Source: Octopus vulgaris
Lineage: Eukaryota
DNA: 64,000 nt
Reading direction: 5' to 3'
NCBI GenBank assembly: GCA_951406725.2
Contig: OX597828.1
Span: 39,494,001-39,558,000, forward strand
Shown here: positions 9,721-59,154 of the stretch, piece by piece
Position numbering within the stretch: position 1 is the first letter of the stretch
Layout: each line of letters starts with the position of its first letter
Notes under the pieces: model-generated
Database searches by the model: none
The model's input: the letters and a program-made list of their open reading frames with translations, nothing else
What the model was told of the DNA's origin: nothing
Position numbers and translations under genes: made by a program

Positions 9721-12689
9721 CGCCGACCATTAAATGCTCAGAGTAATGATTAAATTTTAGGTTCTGTTTGGTAACCGACAATTTCCGTTTCAAAAATAAA
9801 GTCAATTCGGCAAGATTTCAAGGCGAAATTGTAGCAATTTTAAAAAATGTTTGAAATACTAAGTGACAGATGTAATTAGATCTAGATCTACTCAAAACAG
9901 GATGTAAAAATGCTAAGAGCTAAGAAAGGAAACGAAAATTCACAAATATGAATTTCTACTCTTGTGTTAGTTACAGTGTGTGTGTTTATATATATACATG
10001 GGCGAAACAATATTTATTGTCGGATTTATGGATAAAATATTTATATATTTATCTAGAGAGTAGTATAGTTTTCGTTAAGTAATTGCCTCGTGTGAGTGTG
10101 TGTGTGTTTTAAAGCTAAAACAATGAAAGTTATGAGAAATAAGGTTTAGATGGCTTCTTTTGGAAATTTACAGAGCAATCAACACCTCTTCTCCGTAAAT
10201 TTCCAGAAGTGGTCTTTACTCTGAAATACTGAAAATTCCAAGTGACAGTACTAACCATCGACCTATACTTAGAAATAGAATTTTACTTAATTTACTATCG
10301 TCGAAAATGAGTGTTTAAAACTGAGACAAGGAAAAAAAAAAAATCAGCGAACACAACTCCTTTGCTATTTATATTTGGTTTTAAATAAATAATTCGATAA
10401 ATTAGGTCGGTCAAAATGTAAAGGAAAGTAATAACGGCAATTAAAATAATTTGGATTGTAGACTAATTTTACTCTCTTTTTGCAACCCAGAATAAAATTG
10501 GAGACTAAATCCGGTTTGGTAGCCTGCAAGTCTGGTTTTAATTTGATAACGAATCTGCCCATCCCACGAACTAATGAGAAAGTGGGAGAACTTCTACGTG
10601 GCAGCAATGATCCGCTAGAAATAGCAGCAAAATCTCACTCAGTACACCTCTCGGCCTCTTAAAAAAGAGAATATAAGTTTGGTAATATGATCTTGGATAG
10701 ATTAAGATAGATATTCACAGCTGGGGTGGCTTTGATCGTAAGCCTGCACGATCAATGCTCAAAACCGGAGCTAAGCTGCAACAACAAAGGCCTTGCAAAA
10801 AGCTACCCCCACACATTTGATGTGCTCGGTTGGCTCCACGTCACATATAATCAATGTTCTTTGTGTGACTGCGACTGAACTGACTTTTATACTCAACAAT
10901 CGATAATCAAAGTATCGAAGTCAAGGAAAATGATGAGTGTGTGTGTGTGTGCTTAGCAACAATAAGCAAAGAGAGAGAGATAGGGAAAATTGGTGAAATA
11001 TATATCAAGGAAAAGATTCCGCCCAAACTTTTAAACTTTATACATAAAGACGAGCGAACAGCTTATATTGTCGTTTGACTTGTTAAAAACCGAAGCCAAA
11101 TGTCCCTCAAACCAGTGTAACGTAGTCCTAGATATAGTGGGGGGAAAATAAAGATAAAAAGGAAGGCTGAAACAGCTTTATTGTCGGGTTATAATTCTAA
11201 AGTGCTATTAAATATACCGACAATAAAACTGGTTTGGTTAGGAAAAAAATTGCAGCCAAATCTCCATGGAATTAAGTCGTATTCTCTTAAAAATAAAATA
11301 TAATAATAGACGCATCGGATCATCTAAATCCTATACAACAAATTAAAAATAGTCTAAATATATGACGGGGTGGCCTTTGTCTGGAAAGTCTAATCATAGG
11401 ACTGAACTAATAGGATGACTTGGAACTAAACAACCACCACCCGATATAAAAAGAGGAGAGATAACTAATTATAGTTTGATTTGTATTGTGAATTTAAAAA
11501 ATTTTTTTCCGTTAATTATTTAAAAGAATTTAGATTGCTTGATATGGATATATTGTCAGACACAATCAAGCAAGGTCGACAACAGTAATTAACGGTCATA
11601 TAAAGTAACAGGGTATTAAGAGATTTCACTGCTATTTCAAGCAGGTCGAACGACTACGTTGAGGCAAGAACAAAATTTTTTTTTAAAAGGGGGAGGGGGT
11701 TGTGTGGAAAGGAATATATAGTTTATTGTTAATTGGCAATTATTTTGTCGGGAATGCGAAATCGAACTGAGTAGGGTTCGAACTCCATAACATAAAGCGA
11801 GGCGCCATAATGACATTAATTAGTGCAATATCATCCCCCTAACGTACTTCAATACTATTTGTATAATAATAAACTGTTTGTATATTAGGTACAGCATAAA
11901 GAAACAAAAGTTTGTGTGAGTGAGAGATTTCATATGAGAATAAAGATCTACAATATTTTTCGCACTTGGTACGTTATGCCGTCAATTAAAATATATTAAA
12001 TAATTAGGACTGTTTTACTGGTCCGTTTTGTAAGAAAAAGTGTTAAAGAATATATTATATAATGCTATTGTAAAACAATTTTTTACAGATAGACTTGCTA
12101 ATTGCTTTTTAATTTCAACTATAATATTTAAAGATAAACAACACCAATTTCGTTTATACTTTCATGATATGTCTGGAAAGTATTTTTATTCAATAAATTA
12201 AATGTGTTTATTTTCTTTTAAAACATGGGAGCAGAATTCTATTTAAGCAATGCCATATATGACCCCTCATAGCACATCTCACAACTGCCCCCGTTTGTTT
12301 GTCAGTCTGGTCTATTCAGATTTTTTGATATCTTTCTTCCCCATTAACACATTTAATTTGTTGGGATTTAAGCCAAAATTTAGGACTTGTTTATATTTCA
12401 AACTGTGATTTCTTTTTTAAATTCGAAAAAGTGACACAAAAAAATTTTTTTACAGTCGTGTAGTTTTCTGTATTAAGAATACAAATTCGTAAAATACTAC
12501 CAAGATAGTTATGAGAGATTATATGGCGTGCTTAAAGCAGAATTTCTCTCCGTAAAATAAATAAATAAAGGCCCATACAATTCTCAAAGCTTGTATTTTG
12601 TTTACTAAATCAGATCTCTAATATTTTATTTCACGTACAAAAAAAACATGAATTTTAAAAATAATTATATATAAAAAATTAAACCTCAC

Positions 12690-13205
12690 CCATCCGCCGT
12701 TATCATTTATCCATATGTCGATCTTGTGGTCTCTAAAGATTTTTATCAAGATTTGGTTATAATGTTCCCAGGAAAGGTCATGCTTTTTTGCTCGCTGATC
12801 TTCCGCCAAAAGGGCCAACATAATGAAAACCATAGAGATACGACGCCAATGCAGATTTTTCCGATCCTCCAGGATGGTGTCCACAACGCAACGATAGGCC
12901 TTTTGTATTGTAAATTCATCAGCAACTTCGCCTAACAATTGGGCAACGTTTTTATGCAGAGCATCTCTGTAAGTGTTGTAAATCTCTAATACTGATTTTC
13001 TCATGCCTGCACAAATGTCGGACTCGGGTTTCGAGATAAAGTGACCTTTATCGAAGTTTAACACCATGTCTTTGACAATTTTGGGCACTTCTTTTCTACA
13101 AAATTTCAGATTTTCTTCATTATCCATGTGCATTACCGATTGAAAGGGGTCCATAACAGGCGAGGAGTTAATACTACAAAAGATATTCGTCAGAACAGAG
13201 ACCAT
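12690..13205 (-). CDS. Bcl-2 family multidomain protein (Mcl-1/Bfl-1-like), coding exon 1
   Basis: First in-frame ATG at 13205 (the ORF-track start at 13268 is TTG). 172 codons include a BH4-like helix (IVKDMVL), a BH3-position helix (ICAGMRKSVLEI), BH1-like LEDRKNLHWRRISMVF and BH2 WINDNGGW. A GTGAGG donor follows immediately at 12689, the phase-0 intron position typical of Bcl-2/Mcl-1 genes. Confidence 0.9.
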
Positions 13206-13313
13206 CTTGAGGGATATTAACTGAGCGCCTGTTAAACTTTTTGAGGGAAACGATAAGAGCTTACTCAATGTAAACGCTTGCGACTTTAGAAGCGATTAAT
13301 GAAAGCTTTCTCT

Positions 13314-33391: not shown

Positions 33392-33460
<69 letters not shown>

Positions 33461-33462
<2 letters not shown>

Positions 33463-34115
33463 TAAATTAGAAAAAAACTACCTTTTATCAATTCAAAATG
33501 AACAATTAAAATACACCATCTAGAAAATTACATATAATAGAAATATTAAAATTAAAATAACAATAAAATACCGATGATTAAGTAAATTACAAAAAAAATA
33601 ATAAAGACGTTTAATTGGTAGAATAACGACATGTGTTTCGAGGCTATATTTAAGAAATGATTATAGTAAAAATATTAATTAATAGTAGTAGTAAAATCAC
33701 TTCGATATAAATATAGCCACTCATCAGGTTAAAAATAAACTAGAATAATAAAATAATTAATTAATAAATATACTTTAAAATATATATATATATATAAATA
33801 AATTAGAAAAAAACTACCTTTTATCAATTCAAAATGAACAACTAAAATACACCATCTAGAAAATTACATATAATAGAAATATTAAAATTAAAATAACAAT
33901 AAAATACCGATGATAAAGTAAATTACAAAAAAAATAATAAAGACGTTTAATTGGTAGAATAACGACATGTGTTTCGAGGCTATATTTAAGAAATGATTAT
34001 AGTAAAAAAATTAATTAATAGTAGTAGTAAAATCACTTCGATATAAATATAGCCACTCATCAGGTTAAAAATAAACTAGAATAATAAAATAATTAATTAA
34101 TTAATATACTTTAAT
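33461..34115 (-). repeat. Tandem 336-bp duplication, each unit with a type I hammerhead ribozyme (Penelope pLTR/retrozyme-like)
   Basis: Near-identical units with period 336 (tcatcag at 33721 and 34057). The minus strand reads UAAC-CUGAUGA-GUGGCUAUAUUU...AAAUAUAGCCUC-GAAA-CACAUGUC-GUUA. Confidence 0.75.
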
Positions 34116-34627
34116 ATATATAAGATACTAAATATACATTAAGTGAAAACTAAAAACAATACTTAAATTATTCAATACTTTAAAATTAATTAATATACAC
34201 AATGCTAGTACAAGTCATTAATATTGTAATCAAAATAAGAAATGGTTCAAATATAGACAAACTCATTAAATAAGCTAGCTATATAATTAATATATATGTG
34301 TAGTATCTATAGATTTAATATATCACTCTATAATTTAGTTGACTAAATATCATCTAATATAATACCTAATTATCTTAAATTTAATACTACTTAATATATA
34401 TATACCACCTAATTTCACACATACACTACATAGGGTCCATAGTGCGTCAGAGCCCCCACAAATGTTCACCTTCTTGCCTAATGTGATCCCGGAGCAATCT
34501 CTTAGACTGTTTCGGTATTATGTGTCAAAAGTGAAACAATAACATCTCTATTGTAATGTGAGATAATAGTGACAGTTTTAATAGTTTCACTATTAATACT
34601 TTTACTATGAACATAGTATATACACAG

Positions 34628-35646: not shown

Positions 35647-35670
35647 TATATGCATGTATATATACATATC

Positions 35671-36330
35671 CGTTCGTGGCCGTTTGCCAGCTCTGTCTGG
35701 CCCCGTGTCGGTGGCACGTAAAAGCACCATCCGTCCGTGTCTGTTGCCAGCCTCGGCTGGCCCCCGTGCCGGTGACACGTAAAAGCACCGTCCGCTCGTG
35801 GCCGTTTGCCAGCTCTGTCTGGGAACCGTGTCAGTGGCACGTAAAAGCACCATCTGTTCGCGTCCGTTGCCAGCCTCAGCTGGCCCCCGTACCAGTGACA
35901 CGTAAAAGCACCATCCGTTCATGGCCGTTTGCCAGCTCTGTCTGGCCCCGTGTCGGTGGCACGTAAAAGCACCATCCGTCCGTGTCCGTTGCTGGCCCCC
36001 GTGCCGGTGACACGTAAAAGCACCGTCTGCTCATGGCCGTTTGCCAGCTCTGTCTGGCAACCGTGTCGGTGGCACGTAAAAGCACCATCCGTTCGCGTCC
36101 GTTGCCAGCCTCGGCTGGGCCCCGTGCCAGTGACATGTAAAAGCACCGTCCATTCGTGGCCGGTTGCCAGCTCTGTCTGGCCCCGTGTCGGTGGCACGTA
36201 AAAGCACCATCCGTTCGTGTCCGTTGCCAGCATCGCCTGGCCCCGTGCCGGTGACACATAAAAGCACCATCCGTTCGTGGCCGTTCGCCAGCTCTGTCTG
36301 GCACCTGTGCAGGTGGCACGTAAAAAACAC
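35671..36330 (+). repeat. GC-rich minisatellite (~60-bp unit, ~11 copies) amplified from a SINE internal segment
   Basis: Repeated ggtg(g/a)cacgtaaaagcacc core with two alternating spacer variants; runs directly into a SINE 3' part (36330-36497). Confidence 0.9.
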
Positions 36331-40191: not shown

Positions 40192-41047
40192 TACGAGGAG
40201 TTACCCAAAAGAAACTGGAATTTTGCCATATTATTTTATTCACTTAGTTTTATATGTTTACACTTTTACAACCTTCAAAGTATTCTCCATTTGAAACAAT
40301 GCATCGGTCCAGACACATTTTCCATTTACCAAAGCAGGCCTGCAACACTTGCAAAGTGATGCGTTTTAACGCCTCCAGCATCTTTTCTTCATATCTGCAA
40401 ATTCAGTAGCACCAACTTTTGTCACCAGTGATGACCTTAGGAAAAAAAAAAGATCCAGATCAAATTCTAATTGTTCTTTCAGTTCACAACACGCATTCAG
40501 TTGTAACTGCCTTTGATCTTCCATAAGCAAGCAAGGCACGGATTTTGCCACAACTCTTTTCATTTGTAATTCCTCGCTCCCAATTCATTGGCAGGAGCTC
40601 CACAAAACACCAGTCATATCAAGAAGTTCATCAATTGCTTGGTGATGGTCCTCCATGATCAGTTCATGAATTTTCAAGATGTTTGCATTCATTTGAGAGG
40701 TTGATGGTTGTCCTGAACGAAATTGGTCTTCAAGCGACAAGTGACCATTCCTAAAGCATGCAAACCACTTGTAAACTTGTGCTTTGCTCATGGTAGCATC
40801 CTTGTGAGCTGTTTGAAGCATTACAACCGTTTTGGCTGCCATTTTATGTAGCAGAAAGTAGACAAACATGGAAGAAGCATTGTAAAACAAAGACACACTA
40901 TGTGGCAGTATGAACTCACCCACTGCCACCAGTTAACAGACTGATGCCTGAGGGTTGCATCAAGTGGCTTGTAACAGCAGAAGCCTGAACTACAATAGGT
41001 TTGTCCCATAGAGATCGTCTCCAGTTACTTTTCGGTACTCCCTTGTA
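40192..41047 (-). mobile_element. Internally deleted mariner element
   Basis: TA-flanked imperfect TIRs (tacgaggagttacccaaaagaaactgg / ccagttacttttcggtactcccttgta); decayed transposase VYKWFACFRNGHLSLEDQFRSGQPSTS...MKRVVAKSVPCLL. Confidence 0.85.
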
Positions 41048-44110: not shown

Positions 44111-44335
44111 TTAATCATCATTGCTGAAGTTAGTGCGCAGAGGTACAATAGCTTGTGAGACATCTTTAGCCATTTCTGACTGCAGGCTGTTGGCTGCATG
44201 AGAAAGCTGAAGTGCAGCATCAGGATGTGCAGTGCCAGGTAACAATGTGCACTCTCGCTCTAACATCAATGCCATTGCATCAAGCAGCTCAAGGAATCCA
44301 AATGAAAGGGCAGCTCGTCTCAGACGATTCAACTC
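44111..44335 (-). CDS. INTS14: Integrator complex subunit 14 (VWA9), terminal coding exon
   Basis: ttcag|ELNRLRRAALSFGFLELLDAMALMLERECTLLPGTAHPDAALQLSHAA...PLRTNF-stop; recognisably the INTS14 C-terminus (human, from memory: ELNRLRKAALAFGFLDLL...LERECTLLPETAHPDAAFQL). Confidence 0.93.
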   Translation of the reverse strand, partial: ELNRLRRAALSFGFLELLDAMALMLERECTLLPGTAHPDAALQLSHAANSLQSEMAKDVSQAIVPLRTNFSNDD

Positions 44336-54399: not shown

Positions 54400-54465
54400 C
54401 TTATAGAATTGCTGCTGTTTATCTGGCAGTTTTCTCGCATGGCGCAGAACTTTTTGTAGGTCAGC
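54400..54465 (-). CDS. INTS14: INTS14 penultimate coding exon
   Basis: tatag|ADLQKVLRHARKLPDKQQQFYK|gtgaat; 66 nt, phase 0 on both sides, matching human TDVQKILRNARKLPEKTQTFYK. Earlier exons were not found in the window. Confidence 0.92.
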
Positions 54466-55249
54466 CTATAAATAAATAGAAGAAAGATTATTGTTAATAC
54501 TAGTGAGAGAAAAACAAACCAATAACAGCAAGAATTTTAATAGCAATAACAACAGTAGCTACAACAATATGCTCATGGAGGGACATATAGCAATAACAAT
54601 ATGTTCATGGAGGGACATATAAATATGGTTGCTCAACCTGCAAGAAACAGTAGCTAAATCTCAATCATATAACTTACTATCTTAAAAAAAAATGTACTGA
54701 TTTTTACGTCATGAAAACTAGAAACTTTGAAAGAAGATGAAATAATTCATTTTTAACATTTGAACCCGAAGCAGATGAAGCTTGAGATAATGGCTTCAAA
54801 TTTTGGCGCAAGTTGTTGGGGAGGTGGGTAGTCGATAATATTGACCCCAGTACTCAACTGGCACTTATATTATTGACCGAAAAAGGGACGAAAGGCAAAG
54901 TTGACCTCGGCAGAATTTGAACTCAGAACGTAAAGTCGGACGAAATGCCGCTAAGCATTTTGTTCGATGTACAAACAATTCTGCCAGCTCGCCACCTTAG
55001 ATAACTTTTTCAAATTTTTGCACAATGAACTGAGAACATAAAGACAGATGAAATGCCACTAAGTATTTTGCCCAGCATGCTAATGCTTCAGCCAAGTCAC
55101 TGCCTTAATAAAGCAATAGGTAATAGTGTGTAAATATTAGGTTAAAAACCCTTTGGATAAAAAAATAAAGCCAAAAACTTCCTGTGGATAGAGAAATTGA
55201 AAAGACTACTTTGGTCCAATAGTAGAACATCTGTCATGTTAATAGATAT

Positions 55250-56772
55250 GGGTTTGTGTCCCATGGGCAGCCTTCAACTTTTTCTATCCACAAGGGATTT
55301 TTAACCCCAAATTTACATGCTGTTATTTGTAGCTATGGGCAGTGAGTGTTATTTCTTTATTGTTTATGCTTGAAATGTATAGGAAATAGCTATTATTTTC
55401 TTTAAACTTTGCTTTTGCAATCCCAGTAATGACATTTTGATGCTACAATATTCTACAACATTCTAGATAGATTCAATGCTGAATAGACGAGACAGAATTT
55501 TCTAGAACTTTCAAGCATAATCTAGAATTTTCTAGAACTTTCAAGCATAGTCTAGAATTTTCTAGAACTTTCAAGCATAGTCTAGAATTTTCTAGAACTT
55601 TCAAGAACAGTCTAGAATTTTCTAGAACTTTCAAGCATAGTCTAGAATTTTCTAGAACTTTCAAGAACAGTCTAGAATCTACTAGAACTTCTAAGAATAG
55701 TCTGGAATACTCTAGAACTTTTGAATTAGAACAGTTTAAAATTTCCTAGAACTTTCAAGAATAGTCTGGAATTTGCTAGAACTTTCCAACAGTATAAATG
55801 ATAACTTGGATACAGGACTCTTAAGCTCACATATTCAGGTTCATTCCAGCTGCCTAAATACAATTATCAGAGATGGCATCAAGAGGCTGTAAGCATTTGG
55901 CAGATGCTTTTTACTGTCTGTGGCCAATTTATCAAGATAAAAGCAAAAAAGTATTTTGTGGTAGCAACTGCCAAGACATGTTAGGCTTATAAGGCATATT
56001 TTAATATTCCTGTTGGGGATCAAGACAAATTCTGGGAACTTCATTTCATACGTAAAACACTACAAAAATACTCCAGAAGGTAAAATGTACAATTTTTGCT
56101 TGCCTCAATAGTAAAATTTTATATTATAAAATACATCAGTTATGAAATATGTTAAGAGAGCCTTTTGATGCATGATTCAGTGGTAAGAGCATCAGGCTCA
56201 CAATCATGAGGTAGTGAGTTCAATTCCCAGACCAAGTTGTGTGTTGTGCTCTTGAGTAAGATACTTTGTTTCACATTGTTCCAGTTTCACTCAGCTGTAC
56301 AAATGAGTTGCAACGTCACCAGTGCCAAGCTGGCCTTTGCTTTTCCTTTGGATAACATTGGTGGCATGGAAAGGGGAGGCTGGTATGCATGGGTGACTCT
56401 GGTCTTTGATAAACAACCTTGCCTGGACTTGTGCCTTGGGGGTGGGGGAACTTTCTATGTGCAATCTCATGGTCATTCATGACCAAAGGGGGTCCTTACA
56501 CGTTAGTCATAGGTAAGTTAAATTTATTTTTTCTTATTGACAACTTCATTTTTGCTCTTTTGCAGGATGGTATAAAGAGAGAAAAGAGAGCCACGATGTT
56601 TGCTATCACAAGAATTTGGCGTGAATTGACTAACCACTCAAACAGTTGCTACTTCTGCTTGATGGACTCTTCCAAAAGACCAGGCTAGTAAGAATATCTA
56701 GTGCCATGTATCCAGATCTTCCATTGTCCATCATCCTGGTGAAACACTCCCGACTTCCTTGGACAAGAGAGA

Positions 56773-56810
<38 letters not shown>

Positions 56811-58150
56811 AGAGGTATCAAACATATTCAGGAGAGAGTAGCAAGTCAGGTGAGGTGGGAGATGTACATACACAGCAAATTTAGAGGTGAAGCTAAGGAA
56901 AGATAAAGCTGCATTACTCCAACCAAGAAGACTCTAAAGACTTGATCAAAGACCTTGGTCTTATAAAGTCCATTGCCAAACTTCTGACATCTAAAGTGCA
57001 AGTCACAAACAAGTGGAAGCATCACCTGGGTTTTTCAAGGTTCTTCACTTGTTGAAATGGATTCTGCTTCAGCCAAAATGTGACGAGTCTATTCGAGGCA
57101 ACTGGAATTGCCTGAAGAGGTACCAAATGTGTGGAACCTCTTCATTGACAGTTCAGCCAAGAGTTCAAAGCTGTGTTGCATCATAATGAGAAAAAGTATC
57201 TGCCTCTTCCTCTGGCTGATTTAGTGTGTCACAAGATAATGGAAAAAAAAACCAAAAAAAAAAAAACCCAGCTTCAAGATCTTACTAGATGCTTTGAAGC
57301 ATAATGAGTATGCTGGGAGATTTATCAGTAATTTTACAATAATGATTATCTTGATGGGTCTTTGAAATAATTTAACCAAGTTTCATTGTTATTGTTTCGC
57401 CATTGGGACAACAGAGACATGGTCACCCATCACAGATGGCACTGGTTACAACAGACAAAGTTCCCTGTGGGAAGGAAGAAGGTCAAGTGAGGGCCATCAG
57501 TGAGCTTCTGTAAGGTGTTGCTCTCACCTCTGCACATAAAAGTGGGTCTTATGAAACAATCTGTCATGGTACTTCATAAGAAATTTGTAGTCCTTAAGTA
57601 CTTTGAAGATATCTTCCCTAAGTTATCTGAGGCAAAAATAAAGCAGGTGTTTTTGTCAGACCATAAAGAAGGTCTTGGAGTGCCTGAAATTCCCCAAGAT
57701 GTTCAGTTACAAGGAGAAAGTAACATTGTTAAAGGAATTCAGGGCTTCCTAAGCAATCACAAGGTAGAAAATTACATGGAACTGGTTGAGACTCTGATGA
57801 AGAACTGCAACAAAATGGGCAGCAAGATGTCCCTGATAAATTGAAGGAAAACATGGGAAAATACTAAGGGAATATTAAGTGTTTCTACCAGAATATGCTA
57901 GACTTAGAAGTCATTGCTAAGAAGTATTTAAAGAAAAATATGATGGCGTACTAATTTTGAGGGCTGATTACATAAAAGCCTTCAAAAATGAAATCTTGCA
58001 AATCTACTCATTTCTTAACTCTAATGTTTGCTTTTATACAACTTAATTATAAATACATATTAAATTTGATTTATATGTTGTTGTTGTTTTTGTCTGAAAA
58101 TGTGCAAACACATAAACACTTTGTAAATAACACCACCCAGGAATAAAAAG
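55250..58150 (+). mobile_element. Decayed intron-containing DNA transposon, probably CMC/Chapaev3-like
   Basis: ATG 55873 (MASRGCKH...), a GT-AG intron (~56080-56565), IWRELTNHSNSCYFC, YPDLP, LFIDSS, KVLLSPLHIKVGLMKQ, FPKLSEAK and GFLSNHKVENY. The family assignment is from recollection of these motifs; boundaries are approximate. Confidence 0.65.
55494..55786. repeat. 30-bp tandem repeat made of heat-shock-element pentamers
   Basis: Unit tctagaattttctagaactttcaagcatag; about 6 near-perfect copies followed by about 4 degenerate ones. Confidence 0.95.
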
Positions 58151-58639
58151 TGGGTTACATTAAGTTAATCTGATCCTTGATACATTAGTTGAAACATTAG
58201 CTGAAAGACAAACCCACATACAGTGATAACAGTTGGAATGCTTTTCAATCATAGCTCTTCTTGATCAAAGCTGACCTGGGGTTATATCAACCAGCAACAA
58301 CAATAAGCAAAAAGACAGCCACAGATATTTGTTGAAATGACATCTAAATGTTGAAAAATTAAACAAAAAACTAAATATTTAGACAGTTACTAAGATAAGA
58401 TGTTTGTACAAGGGAGGGAAATGACAGGCAAATTAAAGGAAGAAAAATAACACAAATACAAAAAGAAGAAAAATCCTGCAGGCAGACAAATAGTTTATAA
58501 AGAACAGAGGGAAGAGACAGTGGTCTTAGTTAAGTAGTGAGGTGGGATGAAGGAGGCTGTACGACAACATAGAAGGAGGGAGGGTGGAAAGAAATGAGAG
58601 GAATCTAATTGTATGTTAGTGAAGGATATAATTTACTAA

Positions 58640-58910
58640 GTAGCTTAAATTTCAGTTGTAAGTTGACTAAGTTAAAACTGTTCTGGGGAGATGATCCATA
58701 AACTTAGCAAATTTGTATGTTACTGAGGATAATAATTTGGAAAGTATTTTAAATCTCTCCAATTAATCTTAGCTAAGTTGACCCAATGAGGTGTCCCATA
58801 AACTTAGCAAATTGGGTGTTACTGAGTGAGGTCTTTAATCTGGAAGGTATTTCTAATCTTTCTGGGTTTAGCCCTAGCTAAGTTGACCCAAGGAGATGGC
58901 CTCTAATCTT
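58640..58910. repeat. Degenerate ~85-90 bp tandem repeat (about 3 copies)
   Basis: Recurring ctaagttgacccaa...ccataaacttagcaaatt...tgttactgag. Confidence 0.6.
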
Positions 58911-59154
58911 ACCATATCAAATAACCCCACCATTTAACCCACTGGATAATTACAAAATGTGGAAATGAAAAAGTGTTGGGAAAAATACTTTGCGGTATTT
59001 AGTTCTTTTTTTCTTTTTATATTCTGAGTTAAAATTTTGCCATAGATAACTTTACTATCTTTCTGAAGTTAATAAAATAAAATCCCAGTCAGGTACTGGG
59101 GTATAATGATGTAATTGAGTATACCCACCCACAAATTGTGAGGCCTTGAGCCTA

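What the first reader, a model, noticed from the sequence alone, without database searches (positions are those of the whole stretch)
55494..55875. Tandem array of perfect heat-shock elements directly upstream of a transposase TATA box
Seen: each intact 30-bp unit contains aGAAt-tTTCt-aGAAc-tTTCa, four perfectly phased inverted nGAAn pentamers. About 10 units end ~7 bp before TATAAAT (55793) and ~85 bp before the transposase ATG (55873). Established: three or more alternating nGAAn units form a high-affinity HSF1 site, and transposon-borne HSE arrays are known to rewire heat-shock responses in nematodes and plants. Inference: a heat-inducible transposon promoter that, in an INTS14 intron in antisense orientation, could drive stress-induced antisense RNA or act as an enhancer. 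The 5' units are far more homogeneous than the decayed transposase.
Basis: partly seen in the sequence, partly recalled or inferred. Interest (0 to 1): 0.7.

Follow-up and report, generated by a model that had tools for sequence, protein, structure and literature searches.

The report
Heat-shock repeat in dead Chapaev transposon
A real run of heat-shock-factor binding motifs sits in the promoter of a long-dead cut-and-paste transposon inside an intron of the INTS14 gene; it looks like an old transposon promoter motif that was later copied in tandem, and nothing yet shows that it controls anything.

Summary
The array is real: 9.6 units of 30 bp at 55494-55786. Six 5' units each hold 4-5 perfect phased nGAAn pentamers (Markov simulations average 0.02 such sites per 64 kb). 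TATAAAT (55793) and ATG (55873) are where stated, but the four units nearest the TATA box are degenerate. The element is a dead two-exon Chapaev3 (CMC) transposon, close to the horizontally transferred Merrow family. It lies antisense to INTS14, about 1 kb upstream of its penultimate exon, inside a presumed intron. The coding DNA has decayed (18.5% at second codon positions against a fish-type Merrow copy, 7 frameshifts in 525 nt), while the six 5' units differ by 4.7%. They were therefore amplified after the element died, and HSE cores show no sign of selection (p=0.79). Three complete Chapaev3 relatives from other families lack HSEs; the Merrow 5' end could not be obtained. Best reading: an ancestral HSE-TATA transposase promoter, later expanded as a minisatellite. 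It should bind HSF in vitro; an effect on INTS14 is unshown. This is a new member of a known kind (transposon-borne HSE arrays, as in Helitrons); no Chapaev case turned up in the literature searches.

The parts
55112..55334 (.). About 200-bp element with inverted arms (MITE-like) abutting or interrupting the transposon's left end; edges uncertain by about 12 bp
   Evidence: Arms 55121-55165 and 55279-55325, 81% over 47 nt; arms extend to about 55112 and 55334
55327..55360 (+). Remnant of the left terminal inverted repeat of the Chapaev3 element; the true terminus and target-site duplication are not resolved
   Evidence: Aligns with the reverse complement of the element's right end and with both ends of complete relative L003
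55445..55469 (.). Degenerate five-pentamer HSE-like run 5' of the array
   Evidence: Mismatches 1,0,1,0,1 against alternating GAA/TTC; also picked up as a repeat-family member
55494..55673 (.). Six near-identical 30-bp units, each with 4-5 perfect phased nGAAn pentamers; all 36 pentamers have at most 1 mismatch; recently amplified
   Evidence: mean pairwise difference 4.7%; units 2, 3 and 5 identical, units 4 and 6 identical
55674..55786 (.). About four older, degenerate units, with a 4-bp register shift near 55724-55737; one perfect 3-pentamer HSE at 55748-55762
55793..55799 (+). TATA box (TATAAAT) of the transposase gene; start site inferred near 55823-55830
   Evidence: Sequence and spacing; function not tested
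55873..56079 (+). Transposase exon 1, broken by a frameshift, a stop and a deletion
   Evidence: tblastn of P0154: residues 1-13 at 92%, 16-59 at 73% in another frame
56080..56565 (+). GT-AG intron in the E-G-W codons, where Garfield reads E-G-W-Y-R-G-E-K-R; holds a SINE-like insert at 56169-56499
   Evidence: the insert is 81.5% identical to two other copies in the window
56566..58018 (+). Transposase exon 2, dead: repeated frame switches and stops, an AG microsatellite at 56766-56814; first catalytic-region motif LFIDSS and the LH motif recognisable, H(4)H deleted, last acidic-residue motif decayed
58131..58164 (+). Right end resembling the Merrow 3' terminus; terminal GTG not intact
   Evidence: Compared by eye with Fig S6 of PMC4079192; the 3' non-coding part is 76% identical to L006 over 97 nt
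54400..54465 (-). INTS14 penultimate coding exon (22 aa), 1,029 bp from the array
   Evidence: PF20504 positions 11-32, E 2e-10; AG and GT flanks
44111..44335 (-). INTS14 last coding exon
   Evidence: PF20504 E 1e-32; matches residues 433-512 of INTS14 in PDB 6sn1_B

Best explanation
The array is the promoter-proximal part of a dead Merrow-like Chapaev3 DNA transposon. Step 1 (inferred): the active ancestor carried a short HSE-like lattice just upstream of its TATA box, giving HSF-driven, stress-inducible transposase expression. Step 2 (shown): this copy inserted antisense to INTS14, took a SINE-like insert in its intron and decayed. Step 3 (strongly inferred from unit identities): long afterwards, one or two 30-bp units at the 5' side were amplified in tandem by slippage or unequal exchange, helped by their near-palindromic 10-bp period; this made six uniform units. 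Step 4 (inferred from HSF biochemistry, recalled): naked DNA would bind several HSF trimers cooperatively. In the cell it is most likely silent, or gives at most a short heat-induced non-coding transcript across the dead transposase, with no selected role for INTS14.
For: The array lies between the left inverted-repeat remnant and the TATA/ATG. A separate degenerate HSE-like run at 55445 and the degenerate 3' units suggest the motif is as old as the element. Family: P0154 (562 aa, Myxocyprinus; equal to Merrow's 78+484 aa in Table 1 of PMC4079192) ranks first of 91 fetched proteins of 450 aa or more against the element. Decay against L006: 29/18.5/33% at codon positions 1/2/3, against 26/13/52% between two intact families; 0 of 15 CpG kept; 7 of 9 indels shift the frame. 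Units 1-6 differ by 4.7%. Core against flank changes 9/96 and 7/64, p=0.79. The array folds better than 200 of 200 shuffles (z -3.2). A rough length budget leaves under about 200 bp in the 2,451-bp lamprey Merrow for array-equivalent DNA, less than the 293 bp here. Precedent: Helitron1_CE transposase promoters carry many HSEs and are HSF-1-induced (PMC6927752, section 5 and passages).
Against: The ancestral HSE is not shown: 0 of 3 complete Chapaev3 relatives (L002-L004) have any perfect or one-mismatch HSE, or a TATAWAW, between left end and ATG. They belong to other families, but they show it is not a Chapaev3-wide trait. The amplified units differ from the unit consensus by only 1-2 of 30 bases, fewer than 15-20% decay predicts; ongoing conversion could explain this, but so could selection. 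The selection test rests on 16 changes. The element lies inside a housekeeping gene that is probably transcribed, and bound HSEs are enriched within genes (PMC2936546), which favours real binding.
Confidence: 0.6

Rival explanations
1. One reading: the array is a working, HSF-bound element that drives heat-induced antisense RNA, or acts as an enhancer, and so regulates INTS14.
For: 36 consecutive pentamers with at most 1 mismatch, an intact TATAAAT, and an antisense position 1 kb from an exon. Decayed Helitron fragments give heat inducibility to neighbouring genes (PMC6927752). HSE-bearing Alu elements have been linked to antisense down-regulation (review PMC9032817, passage).
Against: No sign of selection on cores. 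The units nearest the TATA box are the degenerate ones. Most strong genomic HSEs are unbound in vivo. The element has lost all 15 CpGs shared with L006, as expected of methylated DNA. No minus-strand TATA lies between the array and the exon. AATAAA signals at 57637 and 58142 could end a transcript inside the element.
Confidence: 0.15
2. The long array belonged to the active master element of this host's family and is spread over many genomic copies, kept uniform by conversion. The family would then seed strong HSE clusters genome-wide, as Helitrons do in Caenorhabditis.
For: The array is internal to the element. The 30-bp unit recurs in both uniform and degenerate parts (units 7 and 9 are 4 and 2 changes from the consensus), so several units predate the last expansion.
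Against: There is no second copy in the 64-kb window. The length budget of lamprey Merrow is too small for ten units (rough). Identical adjacent units point to local amplification. A translation of the array found no protein-database hit (weak evidence).
Confidence: 0.15
3. A chance near-palindromic minisatellite that arose in this copy after insertion, with no ancestral HSE.
For: 0.3% of 10-mers in this window would give an HSE lattice if repeated. The window has many other young tandem repeats. The three relatives lack HSEs.
Against: It ends 6 bp before the TATA box, where a promoter element belongs. A separate degenerate HSE-like run lies 25 bp upstream. 0 of 63,600 30-mers give four pentamers.
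Confidence: 0.07
4. The repeats are subterminal transposase-binding sites of the CACTA/CMC type and resemble HSEs by accident.
For: Subterminal repeats are usual in CACTA elements (recalled); relative L005 has a 164-bp tandem array at its right end.
Against: The motif is absent from the right end (57900-58170), starts about 170 bp inside the left repeat remnant, and runs up to the TATA box.
Confidence: 0.03

Closest known systems
Merrow family of Chapaev3 (CMC) DNA transposons (Zhang et al. 2014, PMC4079192; sections 3, 7, 14, 16 and the supplementary PDF read)
   Same: Two-exon transposase of the same layout, similar right end, 69% DNA identity in coding and 76% in 3' non-coding DNA to L006, whose protein is 98% identical to sturgeon and sucker proteins
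   Different: Below the paper's 80% cut-off; termini decayed; an HSE array is not mentioned in the parts read; the hosts listed are lampreys, fishes and a dragonfly
Helitron-borne HSE clusters of Caenorhabditis (PMC6927752, section 5 and passages; PMC6765114, passages)
   Same: Tandem overlapping HSEs in a transposase promoter, kept in decayed copies
   Different: There a rolling-circle element, hundreds of loci, with HSF-1 binding and induction shown; here a cut-and-paste element, one locus, untested
ONSEN retrotransposon of Arabidopsis (seen only as cited in PMC6927752)
   Same: Transposon that confers heat responsiveness
   Different: An active LTR retrotransposon; this copy is a dead DNA transposon with a minisatellite
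HSE-bearing Alu elements and antisense transcription (as reviewed in PMC9032817, passage)
   Same: Intragenic mobile-element HSE that might drive antisense RNA
   Different: Single sites in SINEs with some functional data; here a tandem array without data

Membership tests
Heat-shock element (HSE) | Three or more alternating nGAAn pentamers in phase (definition recalled) | tested here: met
   Six sites of 4-5 pentamers and one of 3
Heat-shock element (HSE) | Bound by HSF in cells and conferring heat induction | not testable with these tools
   Needs ChIP/CUT&RUN and PRO-seq; fewer than 15% of strong motifs are bound in Drosophila
Chapaev3 (CMC) transposons | Transposase homologous to Chapaev3 | tested here: met
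   tblastn matches from residue 1 to 562 of P0154; same motifs as the Garfield translation in Fig S1 (by eye)
Chapaev3 (CMC) transposons | C(2)C, LH and H(4)H motifs and DDE triad | tested here: inconclusive
   LH and LFIDSS are kept; C(2)C is broken by a frameshift, H(4)H is deleted, and the later acidic motifs are decayed
Chapaev3 (CMC) transposons | Terminal inverted repeats with 5'-CAC and GTG-3' ends | tested here: inconclusive
   Internal parts of the repeats align; neither terminal triplet is intact, and the left end is obscured by the MITE-like element
Chapaev3 (CMC) transposons | 3-bp TWA target-site duplication | tested here: inconclusive
   TTA follows the likely right end; the left copy cannot be placed
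Merrow family | Transposase in two exons | tested here: met
   GT-AG intron 56080-56565; Merrow and Garfield have two exons
Merrow family | At least 80% DNA identity over 300 bp to a family member (criterion of PMC4079192) | tested here: not met
   69% over 554 columns to L006; decay accounts for much of the gap, so it is filed as Merrow-like, not Merrow
Transposon-borne HSE arrays (Helitron type) | Array present in the family consensus and in many copies | tested here: inconclusive
   Absent in 3 of 3 complete relatives from other families; no Merrow 5' end or second host copy was available

The most novel reading that the evidence does not exclude
Merrow-like Chapaev3 transposons use an HSE-plus-TATA promoter. 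Because HSF and its site are conserved across animals, this would be a host-independent, stress-triggered switch that helps explain their jumps between lampreys, fishes, insects and this host. The motif also expands easily as a minisatellite, so dead copies would keep creating strong HSF landing sites of variable length, here one that fires antisense into INTS14.
Probability: 0.2. Interest if true: 0.7.

Novelty: new member of a known kind. Interest (0 to 1): 0.35.

Why it matters
Transposon-borne HSE arrays are known from Helitrons and plant retrotransposons. A Chapaev/CMC case did not appear in the listings of searches for Chapaev with heat shock, HSE with DNA transposon, minisatellite with HSE or octopus with HSF; those papers were seen mostly as listings, and the library lacks most subscription journals. 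If the motif is in the Merrow consensus, it gives a testable answer to how a widely transferred element is transcribed in unrelated hosts, an alternative to the 'blurry promoter' idea (PMC5570127, PMC6446368; abstract starts only). As a single decayed copy it is mainly an example of a regulatory motif amplified by tandem-repeat turnover.

Tried and rejected
Looking for the 5' end of close relatives. The genome-contig scan gave 6 loci from 11 pattern matches; only L006 is close, and it lacks the 5' end. tblastn and blastn against plasmids and phages found nothing. The Merrow paper's supplement shows only about 35 terminal bases. The Anolis paper (PMC3014272, passages read) has no readable supplement; consensus sequences there might bear on the claim. 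Translations of the array found no database hit and only Atlas scores of 0.83 or less; it is not treated as coding. A word-index search with the window's own transposase fragment found nothing; the full HMMER search found 210. Pfam has no family for the transposase. Names for the unnamed representatives could not be looked up. No upstream INTS14 exon was found by motif search or Pfam (frames under 20 aa or over 60% repeat-masked were left out, as were those wholly inside the transposon). STAT/BCL6-type TTC-N3-GAA occurs only twice in the array against 9 TTC-N2-GAA, so that reading was dropped. The bacterial promoter scan is irrelevant here. The search was swamped by an author name. PMC6004678 (passages) and PMC13282606 (passages and one supplement search) held no usable sequence. 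No fold or complex prediction was run.

Full report
Observation. TRF reports a 30-bp repeat at 55494-55786 with 9.6 copies and 85% matches. Read in 5-bp steps, the first six units each give four perfect alternating GAA/TTC pentamers, and two of them give five. Every one of their 36 pentamers has at most one mismatch. The register runs unbroken to 55723, with the key G kept in 44 of 46 pentamers; it then shifts by 4 bp. The last four or so units are degenerate but hold one perfect three-pentamer site at 55748. Seven of the window's eight perfect sites lie here. In 100 Markov simulations the mean count of four-pentamer sites was 0.02 per 64 kb. Counting the array as one event, 0 of 63,600 other 30-mers would give four pentamers when repeated, though 0.3% of 10-mers would. 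TATAAAT starts 6 bp after the array and the ATG lies 80 bp after the start of the TATA box. The last four-to-five-pentamer site ends 124 bp before the TATA box.

The element. The longest open piece (57491-57841) found 210 relatives, and long ones mapped across 55916-57835. A scan of prokaryotic genome assemblies returned six contigs with such transposases, evidently eukaryotic contaminants. L006 is 69% identical to the window in coding DNA and 76% in 3' non-coding DNA. Its protein is 98% identical to sturgeon and sucker proteins of 484 and 562 aa, and 93% to a lamprey one. These lengths match Merrow's exons of 78 and 484 aa in Zhang et al. 2014 (PMC4079192). The 562-aa protein ranks first of 91 against the window. 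The window has a GT-AG intron at 56080-56565, and Merrow and Garfield are the two-exon Chapaev3 families. The right end resembles the Merrow terminus in Fig S6 (by eye). Sequence at 55327-55360 aligns with the inverted right end and with both ends of the complete relative L003, so the array is inside the element. The outermost left end is obscured by a 200-bp inverted-arm element; termini and target-site duplication are unresolved. Identity is below the paper's 80% family cut-off, so I call it Merrow-like. The host is an animal; its interspersed repeats look octopus-like to me, which is recalled and not tested. O. vulgaris is reported to have 22 CACTA-Mirage-Chapaev families covering 4.1 Mb (PMC13282606 supplement).

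Age. Against L006 the copy differs at 29, 18.5 and 33% of first, second and third codon positions; two intact families differ at 26, 13 and 52%. The flat profile, the loss of 15 of 15 CpGs and 7 frameshifting indels among 9 in 525 nt mark neutral decay. A SINE-like insert in the intron is 81.5% identical to two other window copies, so the element is older than that insert. The six 5' units differ by 4.7% on average; units 2, 3 and 5 are identical, as are 4 and 6. They were multiplied long after the transposase died. The array forms hairpins more readily than 200 of 200 shuffles, which is a plausible aid to slippage. Changes are not rarer in cores than in flanks (9 of 96 against 7 of 64, p=0.79); units 1, 3, 5 and 6 were left out as near-duplicates, and units 8 and 10 were scored over 20 bases only. 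The test is weak. One result cuts the other way: the amplified units are only 1-2 bases from the unit consensus, closer than the element's general decay predicts.

Is the motif ancestral? It is not shown. For: its position against the TATA box, a separate degenerate run at 55445-55469, and degenerate units that look as old as the element. My recollection, from no call and unverified, is that fish Merrow copies have a short run of a similar 10-bp motif just before the TATA box. Against generality: 0 of 3 complete relatives (L002, L003, L004, left ends placed by eye) have an HSE or TATAWAW before the ATG; they are other families. A rough length budget (2,451 bp total, about 1,690 coding) leaves too little room for ten units in lamprey Merrow, which fits a short ancestral motif that expanded locally.

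Host gene. Two INTS14 exons lie on the minus strand, at 54400-54465 and 44111-44335. They cover the last 100 or so residues, so the rest of the gene must lie to the right. No further exon was found up to 64000, so the intron is inferred and over 9.5 kb long. The transposon promoter points away from the near exon, antisense to the gene.

Mechanism and rivals. The most likely history is an HSF-driven transposase promoter (inferred), insertion and decay (shown), late tandem expansion (strongly inferred), and strong HSF binding to naked DNA (expected from HSF biochemistry, recalled). Occupancy in cells is uncertain: fewer than 15% of strong HSEs are bound in Drosophila, although bound ones are enriched in genes (PMC2936546, passages). 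I give this reading 0.6, a working regulatory role on INTS14 0.15, a family-wide long array 0.15, a chance minisatellite 0.07 and transposase-binding repeats 0.03.

Comparison and verdict. It works like, at best, the Helitron HSE clusters of Caenorhabditis (PMC6927752, PMC6765114); membership in that kind needs binding and a family-wide presence, neither of which could be tested. No Chapaev example appeared in the search listings. It is a new member of a known kind, interest 0.35. The bold reading, a portable HSE promoter aiding Merrow's horizontal transfers, has probability about 0.2 and would merit 0.7. One consensus alignment would largely settle it.

Noticed in passing
L001-L006 (GTDB contigs of 0.9-3.4 kb): Animal-type Chapaev3 transposons sit in six prokaryotic genome assemblies, probably as contamination. 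L003 is a complete element with termini and an intact 566-aa ORF; L006, in an isolate assembly, encodes a piece 98-100% identical to fish Merrow-type proteins.
   Followed up: partly
window 55112-55334: MITE-like element with about 45-bp inverted arms at the transposon's left end; no second copy in the window.
   Followed up: partly
window 12621-13295, minus strand: 225-aa open frame with a Bcl-2 family domain (PF00452, E 1.4e-8), ending at a likely splice donor.
   Followed up: no
window 40489-40932, minus strand: Decayed transposase remnant that looks mariner-like (label recalled; hit by P0104). It holds the window's only other perfect three-pentamer HSE (40662), at chance level.
   Followed up: no
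window 35668-36325 and 33444-34134: A 61-bp minisatellite of about 11 copies and a 336-bp duplication at 96% identity, showing that young tandem amplification is common here.
   Followed up: no
L005 926-1883: 164-bp tandem array (5.8 copies) in the right subterminal region of a Chapaev3 element.
   Followed up: no
L004 1-60 and 2684-3421: A sequence like the element's own terminal repeat lies about 170 bp outside its left end, and a different transposase-like frame abuts its right end on the minus strand.
   Followed up: no
window 58609-58917: Diverged direct duplication with period about 104 bp (70% identity), just right of the transposon.
   Followed up: no
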